Shown here in pieces: positions 14,997-29,995 of a stretch of DNA of 36,024 nt. The notes beneath the pieces are model-generated. The model saw only the letters and a program-made list of their open reading frames with translations, was not told the DNA's origin and did no database searches. The stretch's first letter is position 1, and each line of letters begins with the position of its first letter. The stretch is from positions 1 through 36,024 of the forward strand of contig CANQSC010000002.1 of NCBI GenBank assembly GCA_947626445.1, in the 5' to 3' direction. Position numbers and translations under genes: made by a program. Source of the stretch: an uncultured Bacilli bacterium (GTDB taxonomy: Bacteria; Bacillota_I; Bacilli_A; RF39; UBA660).

Positions 14997-17900
14997 TTAC
15001 TTTCTATTCTTTTTTCTAGTTGAAATAATAATTAAACTTGTTCCAACAAATACAATAATACCTGCAATAATATCAATATAACTATTTGATAAAGTATTAG
15101 GCACTTCTATTTCTTCTAACTCATTTACTAAAGTTTTTTCAATCACTGCACCATCTTTTGTTACATTAAAATAAATTTTTTCATCAGTTAATTTATATTT
15201 ATCGGCACTCTTTAATTCTTGAAAATAGTATTCGCCATACTCAAGTTCTAATTCAATATTACCATTTTTATCTGTAACATAAGCATTTATAAGAGTTCCA
15301 TCTTTCTTATATACCCCGATTGTTACACCTTCTATTGGCTTTTTATTTTCATCCACTTTATGTAAAATTATTTTAGAAGTAATAATTTTATCTTTCATAG
15401 TCGTTTTAATAATTTCGCCATTTTCTTTAATACTAAAATACATTTTTTCAGTATTTAAAGTATATGGTATTGGAGCATTTTTTTCTAATATATAATAATC
15501 ACCATATGGGATTTCTTCTATTACTATTTTGCCATTTTCATCAGTTGTACCTGTGTATATTAATTCATCTGTATTCGCATCATGAATTTCTATTTCAGTA
15601 TTTGGAATTGGTTTTTCAGTAGAAAAATCTTCTTTTGTGAATTCTAATCCTCCAGTAATTATTTCATCTTTCATTACAGCATTAACGATTTCACCATCAA
15701 TTCTAATTTCAAAATATACTGGTTCTTCGTTTAATAAGTAACCTTTTGGACTGCTGGTTTCCACTATTCTATATTTTCCATATTCGATATTTTCAATTAA
15801 AATTTTACCATTTTCGTCAGTTTTACCTTTGTAAACTAATTCATTTGTATCAATATTATAAATTTCTATTTCAGCATCAGGTAGTGTTTTTCCAGTTTTT
15901 AAATCCTCTTTAGTAAATAGAAGCCCACCAGTTATTTTTCTATCAGTCATCACCGCTTTATAAATTTGTCCATCTTTGGTAATTTCAAAATATATTGGTT
16001 CTTCGTTTAAGACATAACCATTTGGTGCGATTTTTTCAACTATTTTATAACGACCATATTCTAAGGCTTTTACTACAATTTTTCCGTTTTTATCAGTTAC
16101 ACCTTTAAATACTAACTCATTAGTATCAGCATTATATATTTCTATTTCAGCATTTGGTAAACTTTCACCTGTCGCAATATCTTCTTTGGTAAATTCTAAA
16201 TCGCCTTCATATTTTTTATTAGTCATTTTTGCTTTTACTACTTCGTTATTTTCTTTAATTTCAAAGTACACTTTTTCTTCATTTTTACGATACCCTGTTT
16301 TAGGCTCGTGTTCTAAAATATAGAATTTACCTTTAAATAAATTTTCAACAACAATTTTTCCATCTTTATCTGTTACACCAGAATATATTAATTCACCATT
16401 TTCAGTATAAATATCAATTGTTACTCCCTCAATTGGCTCACCAGTAGTTAAATCAGTTTTAGTAAATTCTAGTTTACCTTTTTTTAAATAATTTTTGTTT
16501 GTAAAAGACTTTGAAATAATTGGTGTATATTGGTCTTGATATTTTAAATCAACTTCATATACTTTTTCATCTAAAATATATTTATCTAAAGTTTTTAATT
16601 CTTTTAATGTATAATGACCTAATTTAATATTTTCAATTCTTATATAACCATTTGAATCGGTTGTATATTCTTGGATTAGATTACCTTTATCATCAAATAA
16701 ACCAAATGTCACATTAGGTAATGGAGCATCAATATATATAAAATTTCCATCTTTTATTTCAACTTTTTCGCCAATTTTATAAAGCTCAATTAATCCTTTT
16801 ACTTCTTGGTTAGCAAACTCTAAATCTAAAATATCTTCTTCCAAAGTTTCATCATAAACTATTTTAGATTTTTCGTTTATTTCAAACTCTAAACCGTTAC
16901 CATTCCAAACATAACCTTCAATTGGTTGGTCTACTTCTTCAAGTCGATATTTGCCTGGATATAAAATGTCTAATGTTATAAATTCACCATTGTTATCCGT
17001 TTCAAATTCACAATATTCTGCTACATCAGGATACGTTCCTTTTTGACAAACATATTTATTATTAGTAATATCAAAAATTTTAAATCTTATTCCTTTAATA
17101 GGTACTTCATTTCCATCAGTATCAACTTTCTTAACTCTAATTTTTGCTGAATATGGTTCATTTAAAAGGGTTATATATTCATTTTCTTTACTTTTTTCTG
17201 TAACAGAAAAATCTATATCTCTTGTTAATTTATAACCACTCATACCTTTAGTTTGGCGAATAATATAATCATCAAATGGAATTTCTACATAAGCTGTAGC
17301 TGATTCATCTATTACTAAAGTTGCTACTACTTTATTAAATGTTTTGCTTATAATATCAAAAGTTGCTCCTACTTCAGCATTTACACCTTTTTCTGTTAAA
17401 TATGTTTTATTGATGTGTAAATTTGTTGTATAAACTTCATCTTTCGATACAACATTAATGACACCATCAGCATTATCTTTAGTAACAGTAATTCGATATG
17501 TAGATGGATCTAAACGATAACCTAATGGACTAGTGATTTCTTTTACAGTATAATCACCAAGTAATAAAATTCTATCAGTTTCACCCTCACAATTATTTCC
17601 AATAGTTACCTTTGTTACAAGCCCACCTTTTGAGTCATATACTCCATATATTGCACCAGTTAATTTTGCTTTACCTTGTGGAGTACATGAATTATTATCT
17701 TTATCTAATTTTTTGATTTTAATTTTTCCTAAATAGATTTTATTGTATAAAGTTTTTGTTATTTCTAAACCTTCTTTTGTTACCTTAAAATCATATCTTG
17801 TACTATCTAGTTCATAATTTTTGCCAGCTTTTGTTTCAATTATATAATAATCACCTAATAGCAAGTCTGTTGCCTCAGCCTCACATTTTGAATCAATTAC

Positions 17901-19094
17901 TAATTTTTTTAAAAAAGTTCCATCTTTTTTATATAATGAAAATTCTGTTCCAGTTAAAGAACCCAAATTTGTAGGATTACATGTCTTTGTATCCTTATCT
18001 AATTTTTTAATTTTTAACTTTCCTAGGTACATTTTATCATATACCGTTAGACTAACTTCTGGTACTTCACTAGTAACATTAAAATAATGTTTTTCAGTAT
18101 CTAATTCATAATTTTTACCAGCTTTTGATTCTAATACGTAATAACGTCCTAATTCAAGATTATCTGCACTTGCACTACAATTTGAATCTATTACTAAATC
18201 TTTTATAAAAGTTCCATTTTCTTTATATAATTTGTAAACTGCTCCTACTAAAGAGCCTCCATTTTGAGCCTTACAAGTTTTATTATCAACATCATATTTT
18301 TTTAGTTTTAACTTGCCTCCTTCAACTGTTCCACTTATTGAAGATGTTACAGTATCAATATTACCAGTTAAAATTTGATTTTGATAATAATCAGAAATGT
18401 AATAAATTGTAGGTCTACCATACAATTCATTCTTCTTTTCTAAATTTACTGTATAATTTCCAACATTTGTAGGTGTAATTGTTAACTTATTACCATTTAT
18501 ACTAGCATTACAATTTGTACAACTTGCAACAGTAAATTTTGATAATACATTATTGTTGTCGGTAATTACTTTTGATTGACCTAATGTTAATTTTGATGTT
18601 GAACCATTAAAACTTGGCTTTTTATTGTGTTCAGCAACTAATCTCTTAATTTCGTTTCGCTCAGCACTTATATCGTATCTAGCACCAGAATCATTATAAG
18701 TATAATATCCCTCTGGTGAGTTAGTTACTGCCTCCCAAATCATAGCTTGCGTTGCTAAACGATAATCATTTGTTTGATGACCTGTATACCACCAACCATA
18801 ATAAGATATTTGAACAACTTTATCTTTTAATGTTGAACTTAATCTTGTATCATCCCAATTCCAAGATTCTCTGTATTCATATCCATAATTTGTTTCGACA
18901 TGTGGTTCTACACAAAATGTTGGTGCATTATTGACATAAAAAAATGAAGCCTGATCTACTTCATTTGAACCATCTGCCCAGTGATATGAAACATCCATTT
19001 CATAATACATTTTTAGCGTTGCAGCTTTTGTTTCATTTATTACAAAAAGACTTCCAAGCAACAACGCGACTAAATAAATAATTTTTTTCTTCAT
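14997..19094 (-). CDS. surface adhesin, 1365 aa: signal peptide, thioester domain, Cna-B/SpaA-type repeats, sorting-signal-like C-terminus
   Basis: Signal peptide MKKKIIYLVALLLGSLFVINETKA. Thioester-domain motifs FCVEP (Cys61, 18912-18914) and TQAMIW (Gln116, 18747-18749). At least eight repeats of roughly 90-98 aa. C-terminus is VPNTLS, then a hydrophobic helix, then RKKNRK. Confidence 0.85.
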   Translation of the reverse strand: MKKKIIYLVALLLGSLFVINETKAATLKMYYEMDVSYHWADGSNEVDQASFFYVNNAPTFCVEPHVETNYGYEYRESWNWDDTRLSSTLKDKVVQISYYGWWYTGHQTNDYRLATQAMIWEAVTNSPEGYYTYNDSGARYDISAERNEIKRLVAEHNKKPSFNGSTSKLTLGQSKVITDNNNVLSKFTVASCTNCNASINGNKLTITPTNVGNYTVNLEKKNELYGRPTIYYISDYYQNQILTGNIDTVTSSISGTVEGGKLKLKKYDVDNKTCKAQNGGSLVGAVYKLYKENGTFIKDLVIDSNCSASADNLELGRYYVLESKAGKNYELDTEKHYFNVTSEVPEVSLTVYDKMYLGKLKIKKLDKDTKTCNPTNLGSLTGTEFSLYKKDGTFLKKLVIDSKCEAEATDLLLGDYYIIETKAGKNYELDSTRYDFKVTKEGLEITKTLYNKIYLGKIKIKKLDKDNNSCTPQGKAKLTGAIYGVYDSKGGLVTKVTIGNNCEGETDRILLLGDYTVKEITSPLGYRLDPSTYRITVTKDNADGVINVVSKDEVYTTNLHINKTYLTEKGVNAEVGATFDIISKTFNKVVATLVIDESATAYVEIPFDDYIIRQTKGMSGYKLTRDIDFSVTEKSKENEYITLLNEPYSAKIRVKKVDTDGNEVPIKGIRFKIFDITNNKYVCQKGTYPDVAEYCEFETDNNGEFITLDILYPGKYRLEEVDQPIEGYVWNGNGLEFEINEKSKIVYDETLEEDILDLEFANQEVKGLIELYKIGEKVEIKDGNFIYIDAPLPNVTFGLFDDKGNLIQEYTTDSNGYIRIENIKLGHYTLKELKTLDKYILDEKVYEVDLKYQDQYTPIISKSFTNKNYLKKGKLEFTKTDLTTGEPIEGVTIDIYTENGELIYSGVTDKDGKIVVENLFKGKFYILEHEPKTGYRKNEEKVYFEIKENNEVVKAKMTNKKYEGDLEFTKEDIATGESLPNAEIEIYNADTNELVFKGVTDKNGKIVVKALEYGRYKIVEKIAPNGYVLNEEPIYFEITKDGQIYKAVMTDRKITGGLLFTKEDLKTGKTLPDAEIEIYNIDTNELVYKGKTDENGKILIENIEYGKYRIVETSSPKGYLLNEEPVYFEIRIDGEIVNAVMKDEIITGGLEFTKEDFSTEKPIPNTEIEIHDANTDELIYTGTTDENGKIVIEEIPYGDYYILEKNAPIPYTLNTEKMYFSIKENGEIIKTTMKDKIITSKIILHKVDENKKPIEGVTIGVYKKDGTLINAYVTDKNGNIELELEYGEYYFQELKSADKYKLTDEKIYFNVTKDGAVIEKTLVNELEEIEVPNTLSNSYIDIIAGIIVFVGTSLIIISTRKKNRK
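15101..16478 (-). repeat. five tandem coding repeats of about 273-276 bp (Cna-B-like domains) inside the adhesin gene
   Basis: Repeat starts read directly at about 16478 (GKLEFTKTDL), 16205 (GDLEFTKEDI), 15929 (GGLLFTKEDL), 15653 (GGLEFTKEDF) and 15377. The units are diverged copies at the nucleotide level. Confidence 0.8.
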
Positions 19095-19412: not shown

Positions 19413-19862
19413 TTAATTAAATATCTCAATATGAAAATATTTTGCTACTTTTACATAACAACTCTTTTTTCTTAAATAGATATTACTTTTATCGAGAGAT
19501 AATTTTTCTGCAATTTCTTCATCTGTATGCCTAGACAGTATCGAATAATTAAATATTATTTTTTCATCAGCCGTAAGTTTTAATCTTAATGCTTTAAATT
19601 GTTTATTCATTGATTCGATGTATTCTTTACATTCAATAATTTTTAAAGCACGTTTAGAAGTTGGGTCGCTTATATTAGAAGAAAAAATCCCCATTGAATC
19701 ACTAGATAATGGAGAACTATAAGAAACACATATTTCTTCTACCTTTGCGCTATAAGATCTATATTTTGAAAAATAATCTAATACAACTCCTTTAAGCTGT
19801 GGATAATTGTATTCATCTAACACTTCCTTTGCATACAACTTTGGTTCTTTAACTTTAGGCAT
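19413..19862 (-). CDS. ArpU / sigma-70 region-4-like transcription regulator (Tn916 Orf7-like), 149 aa
   Basis: The C-terminal TADEKIIFNYSILSRHTDEEIAEKLSLDKSNIYLRKKSCYVKVAKYF looks like a region-4 HTH. Start set at ATG 19862 (GAGGGAG SD) rather than the TTG at 19907. Confidence 0.5.
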   Translation of the reverse strand: MPKVKEPKLYAKEVLDEYNYPQLKGVVLDYFSKYRSYSAKVEEICVSYSSPLSSDSMGIFSSNISDPTSKRALKIIECKEYIESMNKQFKALRLKLTADEKIIFNYSILSRHTDEEIAEKLSLDKSNIYLRKKSCYVKVAKYFHIEIFN

Positions 19863-19930
19863 TAAAACCATCTCCCTCTGAAAATACAAAAAAGGAACAA
19901 AAATCAATTTGCTCCATAAAAATAAATAGT

Positions 19931-19956
19931 GAAAATAAAAATGAGATAGCTCATTT
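19931..19956 (-). terminator. rho-independent terminator between the two ArpU-like genes
   Basis: Minus-strand AAATGAG-CTAT-CTCATTT stem-loop followed by TTTATTTT. Confidence 0.5.
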
Positions 19957-19981
19957 CTTTAAACTTATCCCATTTTACTAC

Positions 19982-20010
19982 ATTTTAGCATGTTGTTCTT
20001 GCGTTGTCAG
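19982..20010 (-). promoter_or_regulatory. sigma-A-type promoter for the arpU-like / adhesin / T4SS transcription unit
   Basis: Minus strand shows CTGACA, a 17-nt spacer, then TAAAAT preceded by TGC (extended -10). Confidence 0.45.
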
Positions 20011-20186
20011 TAGCAACTTTTATAGCAATTTTAGTTCTAAATTTAGTCGTGCTAATTCTACATAATTTCCATATTTTATAAGGCATAGAAGAAAAAATAA
20101 ACTTTTCTAAAAAGTATTATTTAAAAATTTTGCTCAAATATTTTTTTAAGCTTTTTCTTAAAAAATGGCAAAAAAAATAACAACCA

Positions 20187-20660
20187 TTAGTCAAATAAAC
20201 TAATAGTTGCAAATACTTCTTTGGTAAATCCATCTACTAAACTAAATCGAAGAGCAAATTTAACATAACAACTCTTTTTAATTAGATAATATGTTTTATC
20301 AGTTTTACATATTCTATCTCTAATCTGCTTATCTTGCTCTCTAGCTAAAATGCTATACTTGTAAATCTTGATTTCATCATCTGTTAAGTTTGTAAGTAAA
20401 TGTTCTAACTTTCTATCAAACTCTTTCAGATAATTTACTACTTTTTCTCTTTTTTCAACAATCTTATATGTTGAATCAACCTTCTTATGATTTTTTGAAT
20501 ATTCTCTATCATCTGACAATCTATGTTGTTGTAATGATTCTAAATATTCTTGTGCTACTGCTTTCTTGTAATAATAATCATCAAATAAATTATAAACTGC
20601 TCTGACAATTGATTTAAGATCATATTCATCAAGATATTTTTTCCTAAACTCTACTCGCAT
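20187..20660 (-). CDS. second ArpU / sigma region-4-like regulator, paralog of 19413-19862, 157 aa
   Basis: LTDDEIKIYKYSILAREQDKQIRDRICKTDKTYYLIKKSCYVKFALRF parallels the paralog (KKSCYVK motif shared). Start set at ATG 20660, about 9 nt after GGGGGTGG. Confidence 0.5.
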   Translation of the reverse strand: MRVEFRKKYLDEYDLKSIVRAVYNLFDDYYYKKAVAQEYLESLQQHRLSDDREYSKNHKKVDSTYKIVEKREKVVNYLKEFDRKLEHLLTNLTDDEIKIYKYSILAREQDKQIRDRICKTDKTYYLIKKSCYVKFALRFSLVDGFTKEVFATISLFD

Positions 20661-20794
20661 TAGCAAGTTCCACCCCCTTATTGAACGAAAAAGAGAAACT
20701 ACTTGAAGTTCTAGTCTTATAAATTAAGTTATGCTAATCTAAATCACCAGAAACCCCAACATATTTACAAATAAATTGTAAATAATTGCCATTT

Positions 20795-20864
20795 ATCTTA
20801 TAACTTTTTGAAAAAATGTCAAGACCTAAACTGCATTTTTGCAGATAACATTGCATTTTTGCAG
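20795..20864 (-). promoter_or_regulatory. promoter with two 14-bp dyad operators
   Basis: Minus strand reads CTGCAAAAATGCAA (20851-20864), a 6-nt spacer, CTGCAAAAATGCAG (20831-20844), 8 nt, TTGACA (20817-20822), 16 nt, then TAAGAT (20795-20800). Confidence 0.55.
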
Positions 20865-20873
20865 TTCATAGAG

Positions 20874-20908
20874 CAAAAAAATAGGACATTTCTCATAATT
20901 AGTCCTAT
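20874..20908 (-). terminator. rho-independent terminator after the MazG/Nudix gene
   Basis: Minus-strand stem ATAGGAC...GTCCTAT with a 14-nt loop, followed by TTTTTTT. Confidence 0.45.
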
Positions 20909-21020
20909 TTATAACAAGTATAACACAACATTCTTATATCTGTATCCCCCAAAAATCTTATACTAAAACTGGTAGTTGCTCTTATACTTAGTCTAATACT
21001 TAATATGGTAGTCCATCAAC

Positions 21021-22571
21021 CTAGTTAAATAGTTTTGCCCAAAATGGTACAAAGTTTTTATCATTTTCAATTGCTGAATCATAACATTTTGCAATAATAT
21101 CTTGATTAGTATTTCTTTCAACCAGAGAACAAAGTTCGTTAAAGTATTTAGTTGTTCCTCTATTTGATTTAAAACTTTTAACTAGCATTTGTGGAATAGT
21201 TTTATTATTCGTAATTACTAATAAATATACTAAATAATTTGAAGTGTTAATGTCTGTATTAACTTTCATTACAGAATATTTTATATTGTCTTTTTCATAG
21301 TCTTTATTTTCACAAACAGTTCCATCATCAAAATAATACATATCTGGATTACTTTTCTTTTGCTTGTTAGTATATTTATATAGTTTTTTAAGTTTGTTAT
21401 TCATTAATTTAACCCCCTTCTTAATATTTATTTTTGTTAATAATGAAAGATATAGTCCATTACTAACAAATGCTTTATCTAAATCTATTATGGTAATATT
21501 AATATTTTTACCATTTTCTCTTTTCCCTTTTATCCTTTTTGTTTTGTTATTTAATAGTTTTAATAAATCATGAACATCAGTTTCAACAAATCCTATAACT
21601 TCTTCTTGATCGTAGTTTCTTAAATCTGTTACATCTATATTTAAATCAGCGATATAAAAATATTGAAATTCTTTTATTTTATAATTTTTTGATACAGTCT
21701 TATTACAAGTTCTTTCTTCGACAAAAGTTAATTTATCATATTGAATATCTAAACCAGTTTCTTCTTTAATTTCTCTTACACCATTTTTAACAGTTTCTCC
21801 TGATAATAAATGACCTCCGGCAGTAATTTCAAGAAGTGGTGCTTTATTTACTTTATTATGATTAGGATTTTTAAGTTGTAAAAACACTTTATTCTTTTTA
21901 CTATTATATATTAAACAGCCAAATACTTTATGCCAATATCCTAATTTATGAGCTTGAGTTTTTTCACAATATCCAAGAAGATTACCTTTTTCATCATAAA
22001 TATCAATGAACTCAATTTTACTAGTATTACCTTTTCTAAATCTATCCAAAAATCCATTTGCATCTTTTAACATATCATTAAATTCTTTAATCATATTTAA
22101 TTTATATTTTTTAGATATTTGATAAGTAATAATAAACAATTTATATAATCTGTCTTTAACAAAATCATAGCTTGTATTGAAGTCTGCTCTATTTTTCTTA
22201 AAACGACACTCATAAATTTCCATTACAGCTTCTGTAAGTTGTCCTAAAAGAATAGTAAGACCATTTAAATCATCATACTTATAGTTTTTATATTCTTTAA
22301 TTCCATACATGTCTATATTTAATACTCTTGCAAGATTTATTAGTTGTAAAAGAACATCCGATAATTCATCACCAAGATTGTCTATTTTTCTTTTGTTTTC
22401 ATTAACATTTTCATTTGCAAATAAGACATTATATACATGACCTAATTGAACATATAATTCATTTAAATAATCTCTTGGATTCCATTCTTTACTCTTCGTA
22501 ATATCAAAATCACTAACTAATTTTAATGCTGCATCATAATAAGTATCTAAAAATTTGATTATATCTTTCAT
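21021..22571 (-). CDS. three-domain fusion, 516 aa: MazG-like NTP pyrophosphohydrolase N-domain, Nudix hydrolase, unknown C-terminal domain
   Basis: Nudix box GGHLLSGETVKNGVREIKEETGL is encoded at 21751-21818, preceded by an IDI/YfcD-like context (AHKLGYWHKVFGCLIYN). The N-terminal LGDELSDVLLQLINLARVLNIDM resembles the MazG/dCTPase metal-binding helix, which is a weaker call. The last 130 aa or so are unrecognised. The ATG overlaps the radical SAM stop (ATGA). Confidence 0.7.
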   Translation of the reverse strand: MKDIIKFLDTYYDAALKLVSDFDITKSKEWNPRDYLNELYVQLGHVYNVLFANENVNENKRKIDNLGDELSDVLLQLINLARVLNIDMYGIKEYKNYKYDDLNGLTILLGQLTEAVMEIYECRFKKNRADFNTSYDFVKDRLYKLFIITYQISKKYKLNMIKEFNDMLKDANGFLDRFRKGNTSKIEFIDIYDEKGNLLGYCEKTQAHKLGYWHKVFGCLIYNSKKNKVFLQLKNPNHNKVNKAPLLEITAGGHLLSGETVKNGVREIKEETGLDIQYDKLTFVEERTCNKTVSKNYKIKEFQYFYIADLNIDVTDLRNYDQEEVIGFVETDVHDLLKLLNNKTKRIKGKRENGKNINITIIDLDKAFVSNGLYLSLLTKINIKKGVKLMNNKLKKLYKYTNKQKKSNPDMYYFDDGTVCENKDYEKDNIKYSVMKVNTDINTSNYLVYLLVITNNKTIPQMLVKSFKSNRGTTKYFNELCSLVERNTNQDIIAKCYDSAIENDKNFVPFWAKLFN

Positions 22572-23695
22572 TTTCTAACACCTGCCTTTAAAACAAGTGG
22601 TTTTGCTCCATTTAAAGTAGAATTATATGTATCTTTTACGATATTATTAGTTGATACATAAACTTTAACTCCTAATTTATAAGATAAATAAGAAGCATCA
22701 CTAATTTTTAAATCAGCATTTTTAAGTTCCAAACTTCCATACTTATCAAAACAGTAATTAACGCCTTTTATATCAAAACCTAATTTTTCAAGTAATAAAG
22801 AACATTTTGCTTTTATTAGTTCTTCACTTATTTTTTTATGAGCTAATCGACAACGAGTTCTTTGTTCTTCGCTACAATGATTATAATTTAAACATTCTTC
22901 TGTACCATAATATTGGGTTGATGGTCTTTTCAATTTTGTGTTTAATCCACATGTGTTAGTTTGGAAAACTTGTTGAGAATGAGTATAATTTTTATTAAAA
23001 AATTTCCAAGCATTTTCAGGCCATACACAATTTGCTTTTAAACAAGCTTCTCTATTTTCCTTTACTTCATCCCAACATTCAATTTTATCAATAAATGTTT
23101 CAATAAGTGCTAAACCTGTTGTAACTGAAATATCAGTATATTGATTTACATAATCTAATATTTCTTTTATTTTTTTAGGATTTGAATTTTGTGGTAAAAA
23201 TGGTCTGAAATAATGTATTACATCTATCCCATTTTCGTGTAATTTTTTAAAGTTATTTTTTAATATTTGTTCAGATATTCTTGGCTCTATATCTTTACCT
23301 AATCCAGAATAGCTAATATAAAACACAATGTTTTGTTTTTTTTCTTTTAATTGTTTAACTCTATCAATAACTTCTTCTGGAATATTACATTTTGTAATAA
23401 TGATTAAATCATTCATAACATTGTTTTGATCTAACACATCAAGCAGTTTTAAAAGATATTTAATGTTTTTAGAATTTACAAAAATATCTGTATTTGGAAA
23501 CAAACATAGAGGAATATCTCTATCATAATATTTATAATTCAATAATTGTTTTACTGCTTCTTCTGGTGTTGCAAGTTCTTTAGGAAAACAATTATTATCA
23601 TTTGTTGCTTGTAATAAACAATATTTACATCCATTAGGACATCCAACAATTGAATTTATTGCCAACCAACTAGAGTGCATTTCAATTACAGACAT
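22568..23695 (-). CDS. radical SAM enzyme, spore-photoproduct-lyase / COG1533-like, 375 aa
   Basis: CX3CX2C cluster motif GCPNGCKYCLLQAT is encoded at 23618-23644. It closely parallels B. subtilis SplB GCMGHCHYCYLQTT as I recall it. A Cys-rich C-terminal segment (CGLN...ECLNYNHCSEEQRTRC) could bind an auxiliary cluster. Confidence 0.75.
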   Translation of the reverse strand: MSVIEMHSSWLAINSIVGCPNGCKYCLLQATNDNNCFPKELATPEEAVKQLLNYKYYDRDIPLCLFPNTDIFVNSKNIKYLLKLLDVLDQNNVMNDLIIITKCNIPEEVIDRVKQLKEKKQNIVFYISYSGLGKDIEPRISEQILKNNFKKLHENGIDVIHYFRPFLPQNSNPKKIKEILDYVNQYTDISVTTGLALIETFIDKIECWDEVKENREACLKANCVWPENAWKFFNKNYTHSQQVFQTNTCGLNTKLKRPSTQYYGTEECLNYNHCSEEQRTRCRLAHKKISEELIKAKCSLLLEKLGFDIKGVNYCFDKYGSLELKNADLKISDASYLSYKLGVKVYVSTNNIVKDTYNSTLNGAKPLVLKAGVRK

Positions 23696-23753
23696 ATAAT
23701 CACCTCTTTTTTAATTGATGATTATTCTAACATGAATATTATTAAATTTATCC

Positions 23754-23787
23754 ATGCAATTTTACAAGTGAAAATGCAATTTTGCAA
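23754..23787 (-). promoter_or_regulatory. promoter of the radical SAM operon overlapped by two 14-bp dyad sites
   Basis: Minus strand shows TTGCAA (-35, 23782-23787), a 17-nt spacer, then TAAAAT (-10, 23759-23764). Sites TTGCAAAATTGCAT (23774-23787) and TTGTAAAATTGCAT (23754-23767) are separated by 6 nt. Confidence 0.55.
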
Positions 23788-23790
23788 TCT

Positions 23791-23861
23791 AAAAAACCTA
23801 ATTTCAATATGAAACTAGGTCTGAATGACTTAGAGCTTCTAAAGTTTTCTAAGCACCACTC
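23791..23861 (-). ncRNA. candidate small RNA of about 71 nt: conserved hairpin module plus intrinsic terminator, downstream of the abi gene
   Basis: A TATAAT at 23868-23873 lies 6 nt before GAGTGGTGCTTAGAAAACTTTAGAAGCTCTAAGTCATT. A terminator hairpin follows (CCTAGTTTC...GAAATTAGG plus TTTTTT, 23791-23819). The 38-nt module is a copy of the abi 5' leader. Confidence 0.4.
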
Positions 23862-23889: not shown

Positions 23890-24759
23890 TTATACATTAG
23901 GATAACCCATAATTCTTAAAATGTCGTTAACATTTATTGAAACTAATTTAGTATCTAATTTTTTAATTTCTTTTTCTATTGCTTTTATAAAACTATTATA
24001 TTGTCTCTTATCTAAAAAAATTTGCATGGATTTAATCATCATATATAAATTTGTAAGATTATCTTTTGATTTATAATTTGCATCAATCTCTTTATACTTA
24101 AGGGTATACTTATCTCTATAACAGAACAAACGTTCGTTATGGGCGCAAATATTTCTAATATTGGTTAAACACCTTAATATTTGTTTTAACAATAAATCAG
24201 ATATTTTAAATTTTTTTGAAATAATTTGCCTATCATTTTGTTTTAGTAATCCATAATAACTACTAATAACTCCGAATGTTAAAACTTTATTTAAAACAAA
24301 TGGAGGAATAAATCCATAAGTATCTTTATAGTGAGTGATAGCAAGATGTACTCCATAGTTATGATTAATTTCTTTGTTAATTTTATTAATCAAGTTTTTC
24401 CTCACAGATAAACTTGCATTATTATCTAAATTATTAACATCTAAATAAGTATCTATACCATATATACTAGAAATATGATTTGCTACTAAAGATTTTATAA
24501 CTATTTCAATTTCCAAAACATATTTTAATAATATTAGTTTTAAATTTTTGTCGAAGTTATATAAAGAATATATTTCCTCAAATGAAACACTAGGTAAATA
24601 ATTATTGTTAGAATCTTTAAAATTATATTTATAACTGTTGATTATAGAGTAATAAGTATATTTTTCCAATTTTTTTAAAGCAAGCTTTCTATTTTTAACA
24701 GTAACATTTTTAGTTTCTAAATAATCTAATAATTCTTCATTCGTTTTATATTCTTTCAT
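23890..24759 (-). CDS. Abi_2 (AbiD/AbiF-type) abortive infection protein with HEPN RNase motif, 289 aa
   Basis: The N-terminal LKKLEKYTYYSIINSYKY is typical of AbiD/F. The HEPN R-x4-H motif RNICAH, within TNIRNICAHNERLF, is encoded at 24139-24156. AAGGAGG lies 4 nt upstream of the ATG. Confidence 0.8.
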   Translation of the reverse strand: MKEYKTNEELLDYLETKNVTVKNRKLALKKLEKYTYYSIINSYKYNFKDSNNNYLPSVSFEEIYSLYNFDKNLKLILLKYVLEIEIVIKSLVANHISSIYGIDTYLDVNNLDNNASLSVRKNLINKINKEINHNYGVHLAITHYKDTYGFIPPFVLNKVLTFGVISSYYGLLKQNDRQIISKKFKISDLLLKQILRCLTNIRNICAHNERLFCYRDKYTLKYKEIDANYKSKDNLTNLYMMIKSMQIFLDKRQYNSFIKAIEKEIKKLDTKLVSINVNDILRIMGYPNV

Positions 24760-24854: not shown

Positions 24855-25721
24855 TTAGCAAAATTTTTGCAAAAATTCTTTTGATGCAGGCGATAAGTTT
24901 TCTTCTATGTATGCAATAGCTATATTTTTTTCTAAAGGAATATCTAGCATTTCTAAATCTGTTGTCTTTGCTAAACTCGTCGGCAATAATGCAACACCCA
25001 ATCCTCTTTTTGCATAATCTAAAGCAGATTCATAACTTGCTGTTTCAATGGATAAGGTTCTTTCTATATTATTTTTTGATAATAATTGTTCGAACAATTT
25101 TCTCTCTTTTTTTGCACTGATAGGAAGAATTAAAGGAATATCTTTAAGATCATTTATATTTTCAAGATTATATTTATTTTTTATATATACTAAACAATAT
25201 CTTTCTGTAAATAAATCAACCATCTTAATTCCACTTGATTTTGTATAATTATCTATTTTTTCATCTATAACAAAATCAACATTATAATGATATAACTTTT
25301 CAAATAAATCTTTAGTTGATAAATTTATAATTTTAAAAGCACCTTTAGGATAATCTTTTTTAAATGATTCTATTTTATCATTTAGCACACTAATCTCTAT
25401 ATCCTCTGCTACACCTATTGCTATCTTCCCACTATTTAAATCTTTATTTTGCTTGAATGTCTTTTCTGTAATAAATAGTAAATTATAAGCTTTTTCGTAA
25501 CCTTCAAATAATGTTTTACCATCTTCTGTTAATTCAATATAATTTTTAGAATTTTTATTAATTAGTTTTGTTCCCATCAAATTTTCTAAAGATTTAATAT
25601 GTCTTGATACATTAGTAGCATCAATATTCAACTTAGATGCAGCATCATTAAAATCTTTAGATTGACCAACTATAACAAAAGTTCTAATTAAATCCAAATT
25701 CATTGACGGAGTATGAAACAT
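24855..25721 (-). CDS. LysR-family transcriptional regulator, 288 aa
   Basis: N-terminal winged HTH MNLDLIRTFVIVGQSKDFNDAASKLNIDATNVSRHIKSLENLMGTKLI followed by a periplasmic-binding-like effector domain of the expected length. Confidence 0.85.
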   Translation of the reverse strand: MFHTPSMNLDLIRTFVIVGQSKDFNDAASKLNIDATNVSRHIKSLENLMGTKLINKNSKNYIELTEDGKTLFEGYEKAYNLLFITEKTFKQNKDLNSGKIAIGVAEDIEISVLNDKIESFKKDYPKGAFKIINLSTKDLFEKLYHYNVDFVIDEKIDNYTKSSGIKMVDLFTERYCLVYIKNKYNLENINDLKDIPLILPISAKKERKLFEQLLSKNNIERTLSIETASYESALDYAKRGLGVALLPTSLAKTTDLEMLDIPLEKNIAIAYIEENLSPASKEFLQKFC

Positions 25722-25747: not shown

Positions 25748-25795
25748 ATAATATATTAAATTAATTAAAATGTCAATACAAAAACTGCATTTGTT
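25748..25795 (-). promoter_or_regulatory. lysR promoter with upstream half-operator
   Basis: Minus strand reads AACAAATGCAG (25785-25795), 8 nt, TTGACA (25771-25776), 17 nt, then TATTAT (25748-25753). The spacing and flanks (AAATGCAGTTTnnGTnTTGACATTTT) match the 20817-20844 promoter. Confidence 0.55.
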
Positions 25796-28969: not shown

Positions 28970-29051
28970 TTTAAATGCTAAAAACAATTATTATTAAATT
29001 GCAATTAACAACTTTGATATTTCATTATTGTTTGCTAGAAAGGAGGAAAAG

Positions 29052-29474
29052 ATGAAAAAGAAAATTTTAGTAATATCATTATTATTAGCTATGATATTAC
29101 CGTTTATTAAAGTTAGTGCTAAAACTATTAGTATATATGTCCCATATGGAAAACATTATACAACAGAAACTGAAAACTTTATAAATGGAACTAATAGTAT
29201 CTCAATATATGTTGATAATTTCATTAACGAAAATGGAACAAGCATTGGAAATATTTATGATTCATCGAAATTACGAGTACAATATATAGAAAATGCAAGT
29301 ACCTATTGTATCAAGTTAGGAGATACAAATATGTCAGTGTATATCAATCGTACTGTATCACATAACTGGGGATATATGTCAGCTGGCAATAGATTTTATA
29401 GTTTTTATGCTAATATTGATGGAAAGAGCTATTATGGTATCAAATCGAATTCAGTAACAATGTCACCAACGTAG
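29052..29474 (+). CDS. small secreted protein, paralog A of an unrecognised family, 140 aa
   Basis: AGGAGG lies 5 nt upstream of ATG 29052. Signal peptide MKKKILVISLLLAMILPFIKVSA-K. Conserved C-terminal block SHNWGYMSAGNRFYSFYANIDGKSYYG..SNSVTMSP is shared with the two paralogs. Confidence 0.8.
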   Translation: MKKKILVISLLLAMILPFIKVSAKTISIYVPYGKHYTTETENFINGTNSISIYVDNFINENGTSIGNIYDSSKLRVQYIENASTYCIKLGDTNMSVYINRTVSHNWGYMSAGNRFYSFYANIDGKSYYGIKSNSVTMSPT

Positions 29475-29560: not shown

Positions 29561-29995
29561 TTGAAAAAACTACTTAGATTAAGTTTATTACTCCTTGTTA
29601 TTTTACCAATAGTAAAAGCTAATGCTAGAGATGCATACGATTATTATACTTCTTTAAACATAGGATATAATAGTTTCTATGAAGCTCCGCAACATTTATA
29701 TAAATCTGGAACTAATAGTATTTATATTAATGTATGGCGTACAAACTTACAAAATGGTTCTAGCACTATTACCGAAATTGGAAGATTAGGAATGCGCTAT
29801 GTGGAGGATAGTGGTACATCTTGTATTATTATTGGTACTACATCAGTCTATACTAATCCAGGTAGATCTATTTCACATAGTTGGGGAAATTTAGCCGAAG
29901 GAAATAGATACTATGATTTCTACACTAATATTGATGGAAAAGCCTATAATGGAGTTACATCAAACAATGTAGTTTTAAGCCCTGTAATTAAATAA
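29561..29995 (+). CDS. small secreted protein, paralog B, 144 aa
   Basis: TTG start lies 8 nt after AGGAGG. Signal peptide MKKLLRLSLLLLVILPIVKANA. Shares GTNSIYINV, GMRYVED..TSC and SHSWGNLAEGNRYYDFYTNIDGKAYNG..SNNVVLSP with the paralogs. Confidence 0.75.
   Translation: MKKLLRLSLLLLVILPIVKANARDAYDYYTSLNIGYNSFYEAPQHLYKSGTNSIYINVWRTNLQNGSSTITEIGRLGMRYVEDSGTSCIIIGTTSVYTNPGRSISHSWGNLAEGNRYYDFYTNIDGKAYNGVTSNNVVLSPVIK

What the first reader, a model, noticed from the sequence alone, without database searches (positions are those of the whole stretch)
21021..23695. Main candidate novel system: SPL-like radical SAM enzyme coupled to a MazG-like/Nudix/unknown-domain fusion
Two genes overlap by ATGA. 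They have their own operator-controlled promoter (23754-23787) and terminator (20874-20908), and they sit beside an Abi gene on a mobile element. Gene 1 has the radical SAM cluster motif in the context GCPNGCKYCLLQAT. That resembles spore photoproduct lyase / COG1533 enzymes, which act on DNA bases, rather than viperin. It also has an extra Cys-rich C-terminal segment. Gene 2 fuses a MazG-like all-alpha NTP pyrophosphohydrolase-like domain, a clear Nudix box (GGHLLSGETVKNGVREIKEETGL) and an orphan domain of about 130 aa. Two different pyrophosphate-cleaving modules tied to a radical nucleobase or nucleotide enzyme suggest a pathway that makes, converts or destroys a modified nucleotide. One possibility is an anti-phage effector, analogous in logic to viperin chain terminators or dNTP-depletion systems. 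Another is a plasmid-protective anti-defence or nucleotide-sanitising function. I do not know this gene pair as a described system. The function is inference.
Basis: partly seen in the sequence, partly recalled or inferred. Interest (0 to 1): 0.85.

Follow-up and report, generated by a model that had tools for sequence, protein, structure and literature searches.

The report
LysR-gated radical SAM nucleotide-tailoring module
A radical SAM enzyme and two pyrophosphate-cleaving partners form a widely conserved but undescribed gene module that sits, under a LysR-type switch, at the head of the transfer genes of a gut-bacterial conjugative element; it most likely reworks a nucleotide or nucleotide-sugar and shows little sign of being an anti-phage system.

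Summary
Two ATGA-overlapping minus-strand genes encode a radical SAM (rSAM) enzyme (22568-23695) and a MazG-like/Nudix/orphan-domain fusion (21021-22571).

The pairing is not chance. In 84 loci from Bacilli, Clostridia, Saccharibacteria and Alphaproteobacteria, this MazG-like domain lies within 6 kb of the rSAM gene in 74. It is adjacent or fused at either end. The IDI-like Nudix is present in 53 loci. The orphan domain also occurs as a separate gene.

A LysR gene lies within 6 kb in 37 loci, typically about 100 bp upstream. In close relatives, paired TGCAAAWWTGCA boxes mark the lysR, rSAM and downstream sigma-like regulator promoters. The module therefore belongs to the regulatory head of a conjugative-element backbone. 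AbiD is a secondary insertion, seen in 5 of 84 loci.

PADLOC has no model for either gene, neighbours are rarely defence genes, and phages essentially lack the module. Relatives sit beside or are fused to glucose-1-phosphate cytidylyl/uridylyltransferases, GT2 glycosyltransferases and UDP-GlcNAc 2-epimerase.

My best reading is a LysR-gated tailoring module for a pyrimidine nucleotide or NDP-sugar. The chemistry is inferred. I found no description in the literature searched.

The parts
24855..25721 (-). LysR-type transcriptional regulator (288 aa). It is the conserved upstream partner and the presumed gatekeeper of the module.
   Evidence: Pfam HTH_1 3.4e-13 and LysR_substrate 5.2e-20. Members of the same protein cluster (c1) lie near the rSAM gene in 37 loci, at a median of 104 bp upstream. 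LysR is the most frequent Pfam family among the neighbours of 32 non-redundant loci (12 members).
23890..24759 (-). AbiD (Abi_2) abortive-infection gene. It is a secondary cargo insertion between lysR and the rSAM operon and is not a conserved part of the module.
   Evidence: PADLOC AbiD 1.9e-53 and Pfam Abi_2 7.3e-45. It is present in only 5 of 84 loci (cluster c33). It has its own terminator at 23794-23822. In L017 a consensus-like TTGACA/TATAAT sequence precedes the homologous gene.
23755..23786 (-). Two palindromic operator boxes (TGCAAAATTGCA at 23775-23786 and TGTAAAATTGCA at 23755-23766), 20 bp apart centre to centre, upstream of the rSAM operon. A candidate -10 TAGAAT lies at 23724-23729 and there is no good -35, which suggests an activator-dependent promoter.
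   Evidence: Pattern search: 7 matches in the window against 2.3 expected, four of them in two pairs. Sequence read. Boxes occur at the same positions (-90/-70 from the ATG) in related loci. Placing the box centres at about -63/-43 from a presumed transcription start is my inference.
22568..23695 (-). Radical SAM enzyme (375 aa). The CX3CX2C motif is at aa 19-26 (nt 23618-23641). A second, invariant four-Cys set (C249, C268, C274, C282; nt 22850-22951) may hold an auxiliary Fe-S cluster.
   Evidence: Pfam PF04055 at 43.1 bits. NCBIfam gives weak hits to PA0069 and rSAM mobile pair B. Invariant residues come from the 35-sequence alignment A5. The AF2 model has pLDDT 77 and pTM 0.83. Its best Foldseek hits are rSAM enzymes with auxiliary clusters or activases (SkfB, PFL-AE, SuiB, NifB, viperin) at TM 0.33-0.40. 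The family has 510 clusters at 50% identity with E<=1e-3.
22020..22571 (-). Gene 2, domain 1 (aa 1-184): all-alpha MazG/DCTPP1-like NTP-pyrophosphohydrolase-like domain, the near-obligate partner of the rSAM enzyme.
   Evidence: Pfam MazG 16.8 bits, below cutoff. Profile A3 against PDB: 5ie9 E=1.4e-3, then 4qgp, RS21-C6/DCTPP1 and YpjD. BFVD finds an all-alpha dUTPase. Invariant acidic and basic residues: E38, R61, D68, E69, D72, E114, E118, R123, K126, R128, E163, D170. The domain is fused to the rSAM enzyme N-terminally (P0215-P0218, P0226) or C-terminally (P0222, P0246, P0254, P0261, P0265, P0267, P0271, P0273). It lies within 6 kb of the rSAM gene in 74 of 84 loci.
21423..22019 (-). Gene 2, domain 2 (aa 185-383): IDI/YfcD-like Nudix hydrolase domain. 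The Nudix box is at aa 252-274 (nt 21750-21818).
   Evidence: Pfam NUDIX 6.3e-9. NCBIfam gives weak hits to IPP isomerase and YfcD. Foldseek against PDB: human IDI1 1e-7, E. coli YfcD 2fkb 1.4e-6, DR0079 2.5e-6. The same Nudix subtype is a separate gene next to rSAM and MazG in Bacilli, Saccharibacteria and Alphaproteobacteria, and occurs in 53 of 84 loci.
21021..21422 (-). Gene 2, domain 3 (aa 384-516): orphan alpha/beta domain. The model shows a long helix, a four-stranded sheet and two helices. It is an optional accessory.
   Evidence: AF2 pLDDT is about 90 over aa 400-500. There is no Pfam hit for this region of gene 2 or for the free-standing L009 homologue, and no significant PDB sequence hit (best E=0.22). 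It is a separate gene in L009 and L048, is fused directly to MazG without a Nudix in L039, and is absent from 390-aa forms such as P0203.
20874..20910 (-). Intrinsic terminator of the rSAM operon (AAAUAGGAC...GUCCUAUUU followed by a U-run).
   Evidence: Fold at -10.2 kcal/mol, z = -2.7. The GTCCTATTTTTTT arm is visible in L012, L014 and L027.
20795..20863 (-). Second pair of the same operator boxes (TGCAAAAATGCA at 20852-20863 and 20832-20843), followed by a consensus-like promoter (TTGACA at 20817-20822, TAAGAT at 20795-20800) for the sigma-like regulator genes.
   Evidence: The same layout occurs at about +2813/+2833 in related loci, and a third pair lies upstream of lysR in relatives.
20667..20794 (-). 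Leader with a conserved antiterminator/terminator alternative, upstream of the first sigma-like regulator. It may be part of the same control circuit.
   Evidence: Alignment of 11 loci. Duplex and hairpin energies, plus a compensatory change in L009. No Rfam family matches.
19413..20666 (-). Two paralogous small regulators (159 and 164 aa, with faint sigma-70 region 4 similarity). They are the first genes of the conserved transfer block: adhesin, SSB, T4SS pilin, VirB4-like ATPase.
   Evidence: Pfam Sigma70_r4_2 at E=0.087 only. Cluster c2 lies downstream of the module in 26 loci. The transfer genes were annotated.

Best explanation
The two genes are the enzymatic core of a conserved module with three activities:

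1. A radical SAM enzyme of the COG1533/SPL clan with a second four-Cys site.
2. An all-alpha MazG/DCTPP1-like domain that is its near-obligate partner.
3. An IDI/YfcD-like Nudix hydrolase.

A dispensable ~130-aa domain is sometimes added.

**Proposed mechanism.** The rSAM enzyme uses a 5'-deoxyadenosyl radical to rework a pyrimidine nucleotide-linked substrate. The most likely substrate is an NDP-hexose such as CDP- or UDP-glucose. A nucleoside triphosphate is the alternative. The MazG-like partner binds the Mg-(pyro)phosphate end of that substrate or product and cleaves it. The Nudix enzyme cleaves the nucleoside-diphosphate-X bond. Together these would release a modified sugar phosphate or nucleoside monophosphate.

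**Role in this conjugative element.** The module has no dedicated nucleotidyltransferase or glycosyltransferase, so it would work on the host's nucleotide pool. It is switched by the adjacent LysR regulator through paired operator boxes. In close relatives the same boxes also control lysR itself and the sigma-like regulators of the transfer genes. The module is therefore part of the element's regulatory head and is not a defence cargo.

**Shown:** the domain identities, conserved residues, synteny and fusions, shared operators and neighbourhood composition.
**Inferred:** the substrate class, the catalytic roles of the MazG and Nudix domains, LysR as the box-binding protein, and any link to transfer.
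For: **Coupling**
- The MazG-like domain is adjacent to or fused with the rSAM enzyme in 74 of 84 loci, in both fusion orders and across four or more phyla.
- The same Nudix subtype is present in 53 loci.
- The orphan domain behaves as a mobile accessory.

**Likely catalytic competence**
- CX3CX2C and four further Cys are invariant.
- Acidic and basic residues of the MazG-like domain are invariant.
- E259 and E267 of the Nudix box are invariant, and R266 and E270 are nearly invariant.

**Substrate class**
- The NTP_transferase next to the MazG-rSAM fusions is a full-length homologue of glucose-1-phosphate cytidylyltransferase (1tzf, E=4e-65). Its cluster occurs in 13 loci.
- An NTP_transferase fused to the rSAM enzyme (P0240), and the one beside it on Streptomyces pFRL6, are UDP-glucose pyrophosphorylase-like.
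- GT2 glycosyltransferases occur in 13 loci, one of them fused to the MazG-like domain. UDP-GlcNAc 2-epimerase occurs in 4 loci.
- Streptomyces homologues sit with a glycosyltransferase and HAD, or with MurA-like and aldolase genes.
- The MazG profile is closest to the dCTP pyrophosphatase type. The Nudix fold is close to DR0079 and YfcD.

**Regulation**
- LysR lies within 6 kb in 37 loci, at a median of 104 bp upstream.
- Box pairs recur at P_lysR, P_rSAM and P_sigma in close relatives.

**Element backbone**
- The order LysR, module, sigma-like genes, adhesin, SSB, pilin is kept in L008, L009 and others, at 45-85% protein identity.
Against: - There is no biochemical evidence. No characterised homologue is detectable for the rSAM enzyme: PDB sequence searches are empty and Foldseek hits are generic.
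- The window's own module lacks any nucleotidyltransferase or glycosyltransferase, so the NDP-sugar inference is carried over from relatives at 26-40% identity.
- The MazG-like domain is below Pfam's threshold and could be a non-catalytic nucleotide-binding subunit.
- The spacing in the Nudix box between E259 and R266 is one residue shorter than the canonical motif.
- More distant family members are fused to TIR, TIR-like DUF4062, nucleoside 2-deoxyribosyltransferase-like, HD and metallophosphatase domains. One sits beside a TIR-WD40 gene. That pattern fits a conflict system and keeps an immune or nucleotide-signal role open.
- The protein that binds the boxes is not identified.
- In the window itself the lysR promoter has lost the distal box.
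- The locus set came from a single peptide pattern (HY[WFY]RP..PxN) and from crude ORF calling, so the counts are approximate.
Confidence: 0.45

Rival explanations
1. Signal-processing module for conjugation. The enzymes make or destroy a nucleotide-derived small molecule that is the co-inducer of the adjacent LysR regulator, and possibly the ligand of the attenuator RNA in the next leader. Transfer genes would then be switched by that metabolite. The logic resembles the opine-responsive LysR regulator OccR driving traR on octopine-type Ti plasmids (my own knowledge, not tested here).
For: - Box pairs are shared by the lysR, rSAM and sigma-like promoters in close relatives.
- The module always lies between lysR and the transfer regulators in this element family.
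- A conserved terminator/antiterminator leader lies directly downstream.
- LysR stays with the module outside this element family as well, for example in L033-L038, L046 and L050.
Against: - This is purely architectural. No ligand or binding data exist.
- LysR regulators commonly sit beside any operon they control.
- Many relatives of the module have no LysR and no transfer genes, but have glycan enzymes.
- The box-binding protein could be another regulator.
Confidence: 0.2
2. Anti-phage defence effector. The rSAM enzyme makes a toxic or chain-terminating nucleotide analogue, as viperins do. Alternatively the pyrophosphatases deplete nucleotides during infection.
For: - AbiD is adjacent in the window and in 4 related loci.
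- The module is on a mobile element.
- Distant members of the rSAM family are fused to TIR, DUF4062, HD and metallophosphatase domains, and one lies next to a TIR-WD40 gene.
- A WYL regulator lies two genes upstream of the fusion form in L004.
- Viperins appear among the weak fold matches.
Against: - PADLOC finds nothing for either gene.
- Only 3 real defence proteins occur among 137 neighbours of 32 non-redundant loci.
- AbiD is absent from 79 of 84 loci.
- The module is a long-standing backbone component of the element, conserved at 45-85% identity in a fixed position. It does not look like variable cargo.
- Two hydrolases that would destroy an NTP product are hard to reconcile with a chain-terminator strategy.
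Confidence: 0.12
3. Anti-defence or establishment function for the conjugative element. The module would degrade or alter host immune nucleotide signals (cyclic or ADPR-derived), or sanitise nucleotide pools, so that the incoming element survives.
For: - Two pyrophosphate-cleaving domains are present.
- It lies in the same transcriptional direction as SSB and primase, which are typical establishment genes.
- Fusions to TIR and to nucleoside 2-deoxyribosyltransferase-like domains elsewhere in the family hint at NAD/ADPR-derived substrates.
Against: - Expression appears to depend on a resident LysR activator and not on an early single-strand promoter.
- Homologues in non-mobile glycan-type contexts are common.
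- Phages, which need such counter-defences most, essentially lack it.
- The need for an oxygen-sensitive radical enzyme is left unexplained.
Confidence: 0.1
4. DNA-directed enzyme. This would be an SPL-like rSAM enzyme that repairs or modifies bases in DNA, for example in the transferred strand. The precedent is phage M6 gp53, an SPL-like rSAM isomerase acting on hypermodified thymidine (PMC8989533).
For: - Weak similarity to the COG1533 clan.
- P-loop and PLP enzymes occur in some relatives (L004), as in the M6 cluster.
- SSB and primase lie nearby.
Against: - SPL is not among the top 50 structural matches.
- No SPL equivalog or PDB sequence hit was found.
- No phage homologue was found.
- The conserved partners are small-molecule pyrophosphatases and NDP-sugar enzymes. 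DNA-binding or DNA-modifying proteins are not among them.
Confidence: 0.06

Closest known systems
Spore photoproduct lyase / COG1533 clan (including NCBIfam 'PA0069 family radical SAM protein' and 'radical SAM mobile pair protein B')
   Same: It has a G-C-x3-C-x-Y-C-(F/L)-L type cluster motif near the N-terminus. These are its only named sequence relatives (E~7e-5). JGI labels two homologues 'DNA repair photolyase'. It is often on mobile DNA.
   Different: Scores are far below family cutoffs (22 bits against 360 and 410). No SPL structure appears in the top 50 fold matches. It has an extra invariant four-Cys site. Its partners are nucleotide hydrolases and NDP-sugar enzymes, with no DNA-repair context.
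Tunicamycin pathway: TunB (radical SAM C-C bond former on a UDP-sugar-derived intermediate), TunH (UDP-tunicaminyl-uracil pyrophosphatase), TunN, TunG and the TunD glycosyltransferase (PMC6105854)
   Same: The logic is the same: a radical SAM enzyme works on a pyrimidine nucleotide-sugar, and dedicated pyrophosphatases then strip the nucleotide handle. Glycosyltransferase, HAD and methyltransferase neighbours occur in the Streptomyces relatives.
   Different: Homology to TunB could not be tested because no sequence was at hand. The window has no dehydratase, epimerase, acyltransferase or glycosyltransferase. The host is a gut Firmicute mobile element and not an antibiotic producer.
Viperin and prokaryotic viperins (CTP to ddhCTP)
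   Same: Both are radical SAM enzymes acting (here presumed) on a pyrimidine nucleotide. Viperins are weak structural matches (TM 0.33-0.37).
   Different: There is no PADLOC pVip hit. The sequence family differs. An auxiliary Cys site is present. The module is coupled to two hydrolases that would destroy an NTP product. It is not in defence islands.
PolH/NikJ with PolJ (octosyl acid formation from 3'-enolpyruvyl-UMP; PMC5365060)
   Same: The pairing is a radical SAM enzyme with a phosphatase acting on a uridine nucleotide. Streptomyces homologues of the window enzyme sit directly after a MurA-like enolpyruvyl transferase gene.
   Different: PolH carries its cluster motif at C225/C229/C232. 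This family carries it at residues 19-26. The architecture therefore differs, and sequence homology was not tested.
MazG / DCTPP1 (RS21-C6) / YpjD all-alpha NTP pyrophosphohydrolases
   Same: It has an all-helical fold, an LGDELSDVLLQL helix that aligns to the MazG metal-binding helix, and profile hits to 5ie9, 4qgp, 2oie and 2gta.
   Different: It is a longer (184 aa), seven-helix single-chain version with a second acidic set (E114/E118/E163/D170). It is below Pfam's cutoff. It is found with or fused to the rSAM enzyme in most of the loci surveyed here (74 of 84), and no homologue of it was found in sequenced plasmids.
IDI-type Nudix proteins (IPP isomerase type 1, E. coli YfcD, Deinococcus DR0079)
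   Same: These are its best structural matches and its best NCBIfam hits. It shares the N-terminal extension before the Nudix fold.
   Different: The NCBIfam IDI score is 23 bits against a cutoff of 127. It keeps the hydrolase-type RE-x2-EE box. By my reading, the position of IDI's catalytic Cys (..CGHP) is Gly here (..GGHL). It is therefore a hydrolase-like member and not an isomerase.
OccR-occ-traR circuit of octopine-type Ti plasmids (my own knowledge)
   Same: A LysR-type regulator beside a small-molecule-processing operon sits upstream of the regulators of conjugative transfer.
   Different: The host, the enzymes and the regulators are unrelated. No ligand is known here. The link is inferred from shared operator boxes only.

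Membership tests
Radical SAM superfamily | CX3CX2C cluster motif and a Pfam PF04055 score above the gathering threshold | tested here: met
   C19/C23/C26 are invariant. PF04055 scores 43.1 bits against a cutoff of 29.5.
Radical SAM superfamily | Partial TIM-barrel fold resembling solved rSAM enzymes | tested here: met
   AF2 model with pTM 0.83. The top Foldseek PDB hits with probability 1.00 are all rSAM enzymes (SkfB, PFL-AE, SuiB, NifB, TokK, viperin), although TM is only 0.33-0.40.
Spore photoproduct lyase (SplB) | Match to the SPL equivalog or to SPL structures (4FHC/4FHE) | tested here: not met
   There is no SPL model among the NCBIfam hits. No SPL chain appears in the PDB sequence searches or among the top 50 Foldseek matches.
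Spore photoproduct lyase (SplB) | DNA lesion as substrate, and a sporulation or DNA-repair gene context | tested here: not met
   The neighbours are LysR, nucleotide hydrolases and NDP-sugar enzymes. The substrate itself cannot be tested with these tools.
COG1533 / PA0069 / rSAM mobile pair B clan | Score above the curated family cutoffs | tested here: not met
   22.1 bits against 360 and 22.3 bits against 410. This is a distant clan-level relationship only.
Viperin / pVip defence | Match to a PADLOC or NCBIfam viperin model | tested here: not met
   PADLOC finds 0 families for the rSAM protein. There is no viperin model. Fold similarity is only generic.
Any catalogued anti-phage system (PADLOC-DB 2.0) | HMM hit for either gene, and enrichment of defence genes nearby | tested here: not met
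   There are no significant hits: gene 2 matches only PDC-S07 at E=0.023. Three genuine defence proteins occur among 137 neighbours.
MazG (all-alpha NTP pyrophosphohydrolase) | Pfam MazG or MazG-like score above the gathering threshold | tested here: not met
   16.8 bits against 22, and 14.7 bits against 27.
MazG (all-alpha NTP pyrophosphohydrolase) | Helical fold with conserved acidic metal-binding residues (E..E / E..D helices) | tested here: inconclusive
   The model is all-helical over aa 1-185. Profile hits to MazG-type PDB chains reach E=1.4e-3 at best. D68/E69/D72 and E114/E118/E163/D170 are invariant. Activity is untested.
Nudix hydrolase | Pfam NUDIX above threshold and a Nudix box GX5EX7REUXEEXGU | tested here: met
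   36.4 bits against 21.1. The box GGHLLSGETVKNGVREIKEETGL retains E259, R266, E267, E270 and E271, with a spacer one residue short.
Type 1 IPP isomerase | NCBIfam equivalog score, and the catalytic Cys | tested here: not met
   23 bits against a cutoff of 127. The Cys position is read as Gly by eye, not from a formal alignment to IDI.
PolH/NikJ octosyl-acid synthase | Cluster motif in mid-protein (C225/C229/C232), with a UMP enolpyruvyl transferase partner | tested here: not met
   The motif is at residues 19-26 here, against C225 in PolH. The window has no MurA-like gene. Direct sequence comparison was not possible.
LysR-type regulon | A LysR regulator adjacent, plus paired dyad boxes about two helical turns apart at the regulated promoters | tested here: met
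   Pfam HTH_1 and LysR_substrate. Box pairs lie 20 bp apart at two window promoters, and at three promoters in relatives.
LysR-type regulon | LysR protein binds the boxes and responds to a co-inducer | not testable with these tools
   This needs EMSA or footprinting and reporter assays.

The most novel reading that the evidence does not exclude
A conjugative element carries its own radical-SAM-based small-molecule chemistry. The rSAM/MazG-like/Nudix trio would convert a host pyrimidine nucleotide or NDP-sugar into a new metabolite (or remove one). That metabolite would be the ligand of the adjacent LysR regulator, and possibly of the uncatalogued attenuator RNA in the next leader, so that transfer genes are switched by a self-processed nucleotide-derived signal. 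This would be a new class of mobile-element signalling and a new radical SAM reaction on a nucleotide.
Probability: 0.13. Interest if true: 0.85.

Novelty: new variant of a known kind. Interest (0 to 1): 0.62.

Why it matters
The radical SAM superfamily is vast, and most of its members have no known reaction. Here a well-delimited family comes with unusually strong built-in clues. It has about 510 clusters at 50% identity, a near-obligate MazG-like partner, a specific Nudix, and sugar-1-phosphate cytidylyl/uridylyltransferases in relatives. These clues make its chemistry directly testable with a short list of substrates.

If the reaction is a new radical transformation of a pyrimidine nucleotide-sugar or NTP, it adds to a very small set of such enzymes (viperin, MoaA, DesII, TunB, PolH).

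The placement also matters. The module sits under a LysR switch that shares its operators with the regulators of transfer genes, in an element family common in gut Bacilli metagenome-assembled genomes. That suggests a metabolite-gated step in horizontal gene transfer in the gut.

The analysis also corrects a tempting misreading. Adjacency to an Abi gene on a mobile element does not make a gene pair a defence system.

Tried and rejected
- **DNA similarity.** Megablast against plasmids and blastn against phages found nothing.
- **Single-sequence and profile PDB searches for the rSAM enzyme.** Only a designed TIM barrel matched.
- **Orphan C-terminal domain against PDB.** The best hit was DUF1851 at E=0.22, which I rejected as not significant. 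I could not fold-search the domain on its own, because fold searches take whole models and the Nudix domain dominates them.
- **PolH/NikJ identity.** The MurA-like neighbour in Streptomyces suggested it. I rejected it as membership because the cluster motif is in a different position.
- **Phage M6 gp53-like DNA hypermodification.** tblastn found no phage homologue.
- **Third homology search.** I spent it on the TIR-rSAM fusion P0292. It was swamped by TIR-domain hits and yielded only one context, L096.
- **Rfam.** No known RNA family matches the window or the leader.
- **P-loop partner (cluster c6).** There is only faint similarity to HPr kinase, so its function is left open.
- **Small Nudix (c9) against PDB.** Uninformative.
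- **Literature.** Ten searches found no description of the module.
- **Chance adjacency or housekeeping.** The synteny and fusion data exclude it.

Full report
**1. What is in the window**

The window has about 24% G+C and is part of a conjugative element. All the following genes are on the minus strand:

- a LysR regulator (24855-25721)
- AbiD (23890-24759)
- the two genes of the finding
- two small regulators with faint sigma-70 region 4 similarity (20187-20666 and 19413-19907)
- a 1365-aa thioester/SpaA-repeat adhesin
- SSB
- a T4SS pilin
- a VirB4-like ATPase
- an M23 peptidase
- a primase
- HU

Gene 1 (22568-23695, 375 aa) is a radical SAM (rSAM) protein. It scores 43.1 bits on PF04055 and carries GCPNGCKYCLLQAT. 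Gene 2 (21021-22571, 516 aa) has a Nudix domain (36.4 bits) preceded by a sub-threshold MazG-like region. The two genes overlap by ATGA. The operon ends in a hairpin with a U-run at 20874-20910 (-10.2 kcal/mol, z = -2.7). It is preceded by two 12-bp palindromic boxes at 23775-23786 and 23755-23766.

**2. The pairing is a conserved system**

- Homology searches returned 259 relatives of gene 1 and 99 of gene 2. None carries a name more specific than 'radical SAM protein', 'DNA repair photolyase' or 'NUDIX domain-containing protein'. Many pairs share the same contigs.
- Four gene-2 hits (P0215-P0218, about 560 aa) turned out to be fusions of the MazG-like domain to the N-terminus of the rSAM enzyme.
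- An exhaustive HMM search of 1.84 billion representatives with an rSAM profile found 510 clusters at E<=1e-3.
- Local profile searches then showed the MazG-like domain fused to the rSAM enzyme at the N-terminus (P0215-P0218, P0226) and at the C-terminus (P0222, P0246, P0254, P0261, P0265, P0267, P0271, P0273).
- A scan of one genome per species gave 80 further loci. They come from gut 'uncultured Bacilli', Tenericutes and Clostridia metagenome-assembled genomes, and from Streptomyces, Ensifer, Saccharibacteria and Alphaproteobacteria.

I annotated the loci with my own profiles (A3 for the MazG-like domain, 'nud' for the Nudix domain, A4 for the orphan domain). The MazG-like domain lies within 6 kb of the rSAM gene in 74 of 84 loci. 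The same IDI-like Nudix subtype is present in 53. Every arrangement occurs:

| Arrangement | Examples |
|---|---|
| rSAM, then MazG-Nudix-orphan fusion | window type, 30 loci |
| rSAM, MazG and Nudix as three genes | L033-L038, L082, L085, L087 |
| rSAM-MazG fusion, then Nudix | Saccharibacteria L079-L081 |
| MazG-rSAM fusion | L052-L056 |
| Nudix, rSAM, MazG | L057 |
| rSAM, then MazG-orphan fusion | L039 |

The orphan domain is a separate gene in L009 (42% identity, E=1e-26) and in L048. These counts come from one peptide pattern and simple ORF calling, so they are approximate. The signal is far beyond chance all the same.

**3. The proteins**

*rSAM enzyme.* Besides C19/C23/C26, four Cys (C249, C268, C274, C282) are invariant across 35 members that share 26-63% identity with the window protein. 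The AF2 model (pLDDT 77, pTM 0.83) matches rSAM enzymes only generically: SkfB, PFL-AE, SuiB, NifB and viperin at TM 0.33-0.40. No SPL structure is in the top 50. The only named sequence relatives are 'PA0069 family' and 'radical SAM mobile pair protein B' at E~7e-5, far below their cutoffs. 'SPL-like' therefore holds at clan level only.

*MazG-like domain.* The model is all-helical. The profile hits MazG-type pyrophosphohydrolases (5ie9 at E=1.4e-3, then 4qgp, RS21-C6/DCTPP1 and YpjD). A phage all-alpha dUTPase is a fold match. Invariant residues are E38, R61, D68, E69, D72, E114, E118, R123, K126, R128, E163 and D170. This pattern fits Mg-(pyro)phosphate binding.

*Nudix domain.* Its fold is closest to type 1 IPP isomerases, E. 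coli YfcD and Deinococcus DR0079. It keeps the hydrolase box.

*Orphan domain.* It is confidently folded but has no detectable relatives of known function.

**4. Context and regulation**

- **LysR.** A LysR gene of one protein cluster lies near the rSAM gene in 37 loci, at a median of 104 bp upstream. LysR is the commonest Pfam family among 137 neighbours of 32 non-redundant loci.
- **Shared boxes.** In close relatives, pairs of TGCAAAWWTGCA boxes spaced 19-30 bp apart occur at three promoters: upstream of lysR, upstream of the rSAM gene (-90/-70), and after the operon's terminator just upstream of a TTGACA -35 for the first sigma-like regulator. In the window, the rSAM promoter has no good -35. 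By my estimate its boxes centre near -63/-43, the classical layout of a LysR-activated promoter (inference).
- **Conserved block.** The order LysR, module, sigma-like genes, adhesin, SSB, pilin recurs in L008, L009 and many others. Sequence upstream of lysR is not shared.
- **AbiD.** It is present in only 5 of 84 loci. In the window it has its own terminator, and in L017 a consensus-like promoter sequence precedes the homologous gene. It is an insertion between lysR and the operon.

**5. Defence or not**

- PADLOC has no model matching either gene.
- Among the 137 neighbours, the PADLOC hits are mostly ABC ATPases and cysteine desulfurases matching generic models. Only a type I REase, a HerA and the window's AbiD are genuine.
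- tblastn finds no homologue of the rSAM protein in 50,697 phage genomes. Only 3 of 2.9 million IMG/VR contigs carry the module.
- Against this, a more distant branch of the rSAM family is fused to TIR, DUF4062, nucleoside 2-deoxyribosyltransferase-like, HD, metallophosphatase and TCAD9-kinase domains. One TIR-rSAM gene sits by a TIR-WD40 gene and a Ras-like GTPase.

A conflict role therefore cannot be excluded for the wider family. It is not what the window's subfamily context indicates.

**6. Clues to the substrate**

- In 13 loci the MazG-rSAM fusion or its split form is followed by an NTP_transferase. That protein is a full-length homologue of glucose-1-phosphate cytidylyltransferase (1tzf, E=4e-65).
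- Other family members have the rSAM domain fused to a UDP-glucose pyrophosphorylase-like domain (P0240).
- On the Streptomyces linear plasmid pFRL6 the rSAM homologue lies between such an enzyme and a glycosyltransferase plus HAD phosphatase. Two dCTP deaminases, a cytidine deaminase, a methyltransferase and a canonical MazG lie upstream.
- GT2 glycosyltransferases occur in 13 loci, one fused to the MazG-like domain (L060). UDP-GlcNAc 2-epimerase occurs in 4 loci. A second small Nudix and a P-loop protein also recur.
- Fe-S assembly genes (SufBD, cysteine desulfurase) and thioredoxins are neighbours in several loci.

Taken together, the family most plausibly acts on a pyrimidine nucleotide-linked sugar, or on the NTP itself. 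The MazG-like and Nudix partners would handle the (pyro)phosphate linkages. The tunicamycin pathway offers a known precedent for this logic: TunB, an rSAM enzyme, works with a UDP-sugar pyrophosphatase and a glycosyltransferase (PMC6105854). PolH with PolJ is another (PMC5365060), but PolH has a different architecture, with its motif at C225. Homology to TunB could not be tested.

**7. Verdict**

The finding is real and, as far as ten literature searches and four HMM libraries show, undescribed.

The best-supported description is a LysR-gated tailoring module for a nucleotide or NDP-sugar, made of an rSAM enzyme, a MazG-like domain, an IDI-like Nudix and an optional orphan domain. It is a backbone component of the regulatory head of a conjugative-element family in gut Bacilli. 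Confidence is 0.45 for the mechanism class and above 0.9 that it is a functional unit.

The most interesting open possibility is that its product or substrate is the signal read by LysR, and perhaps by the attenuator leader downstream, tying transfer to a nucleotide-derived metabolite.

Noticed in passing
window 20667-20794 (minus strand); also L008, L009, L011, L012, L014-L016, L019, L021, L027 upstream of the first sigma-like gene: The leader has a conserved hairpin, then a GGGGUUCUAGUGAU box that can pair with AUUACUAGAAC, the 5' arm of an intrinsic terminator. The antiterminator and terminator are mutually exclusive. L009 carries a compensatory change (UUUUUGGUA:UACCAAGA). No Rfam family matches. 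In the window the terminator's 5' arm is partly missing (-3.7 kcal/mol), so attenuation may be leaky here.
   Followed up: partly
window ~25771-25795 (upstream of lysR, minus strand): Relatives have two full operator boxes upstream of the lysR -35. The window keeps only a half-box (AAATGCAG) next to TTGACA, preceded by a short direct repeat (AAAGGTTTAA x2). This suggests a rearrangement breakpoint. Genes upstream of lysR are not shared with any related locus.
   Followed up: partly
P0292, P0282, P0304 (TIR-rSAM); P0281 (nucleoside 2-deoxyribosyltransferase-like-rSAM); P0343 (DUF4062...rSAM...HD); P0338 (metallophosphatase-rSAM); P0307 (TCAD9 + APH kinase-rSAM); L096:5832-8009: A more distant branch of the same rSAM family (E 1e-27 to 1e-47) is fused to immune-type or nucleotide-processing domains. 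One TIR-rSAM gene lies next to a TIR-WD40 gene and a Ras-like GTPase. I found no description of these fusions.
   Followed up: partly
L001 (Streptomyces sp. F12 plasmid pFRL6, 67366-80466); L002 and L003 (other Streptomyces linear plasmids): Full-length homologues at 30-34% identity sit in nucleoside- or nucleotide-sugar-like clusters. One cluster has MazG, two dCTP deaminases, a cytidine deaminase, a methyltransferase, a UDP-glucose pyrophosphorylase, the rSAM gene, a glycosyltransferase and a HAD phosphatase. The others have a class II aldolase and a MurA-like gene before the rSAM gene. These may be uncharacterised natural-product or DNA-modification pathways.
   Followed up: partly
L004:3-10756 (Logan SRR28204446 contig): A larger operon surrounds the MazG-rSAM fusion: a PLP enzyme, a 782-aa HAD protein, a 631-aa PfkB kinase, a WYL regulator, a P-loop protein, the MazG-rSAM fusion, a glucose-1-phosphate cytidylyltransferase-like gene and a small Nudix.
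   Followed up: partly
window 29028-29474 (+), 29561-29995 (+), 35591-36013 (-), and 30044-31678 (-): Three paralogous ORFs of 140-148 aa with no Pfam hit fall in one protein cluster. Two of them lie directly beside a DDE transposase gene (30044-31678), which marks a rearranged cargo region upstream of the conserved block.
   Followed up: no
window 14997-19094 (minus strand): A 1365-aa surface protein has an N-terminal thioester domain (TED) and 11 SpaA-type repeats. It is conserved downstream of the module in 17 loci and is presumably the mating adhesin of this element family.
   Followed up: no
L033, L034, L035, L042, L073 (downstream of the module); several of the 32 non-redundant loci: In non-conjugative contexts the LysR-rSAM-MazG-Nudix set is followed by an ABC transporter. 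Fe-S assembly genes (SufBD, cysteine desulfurase) and thioredoxins recur nearby.
   Followed up: no
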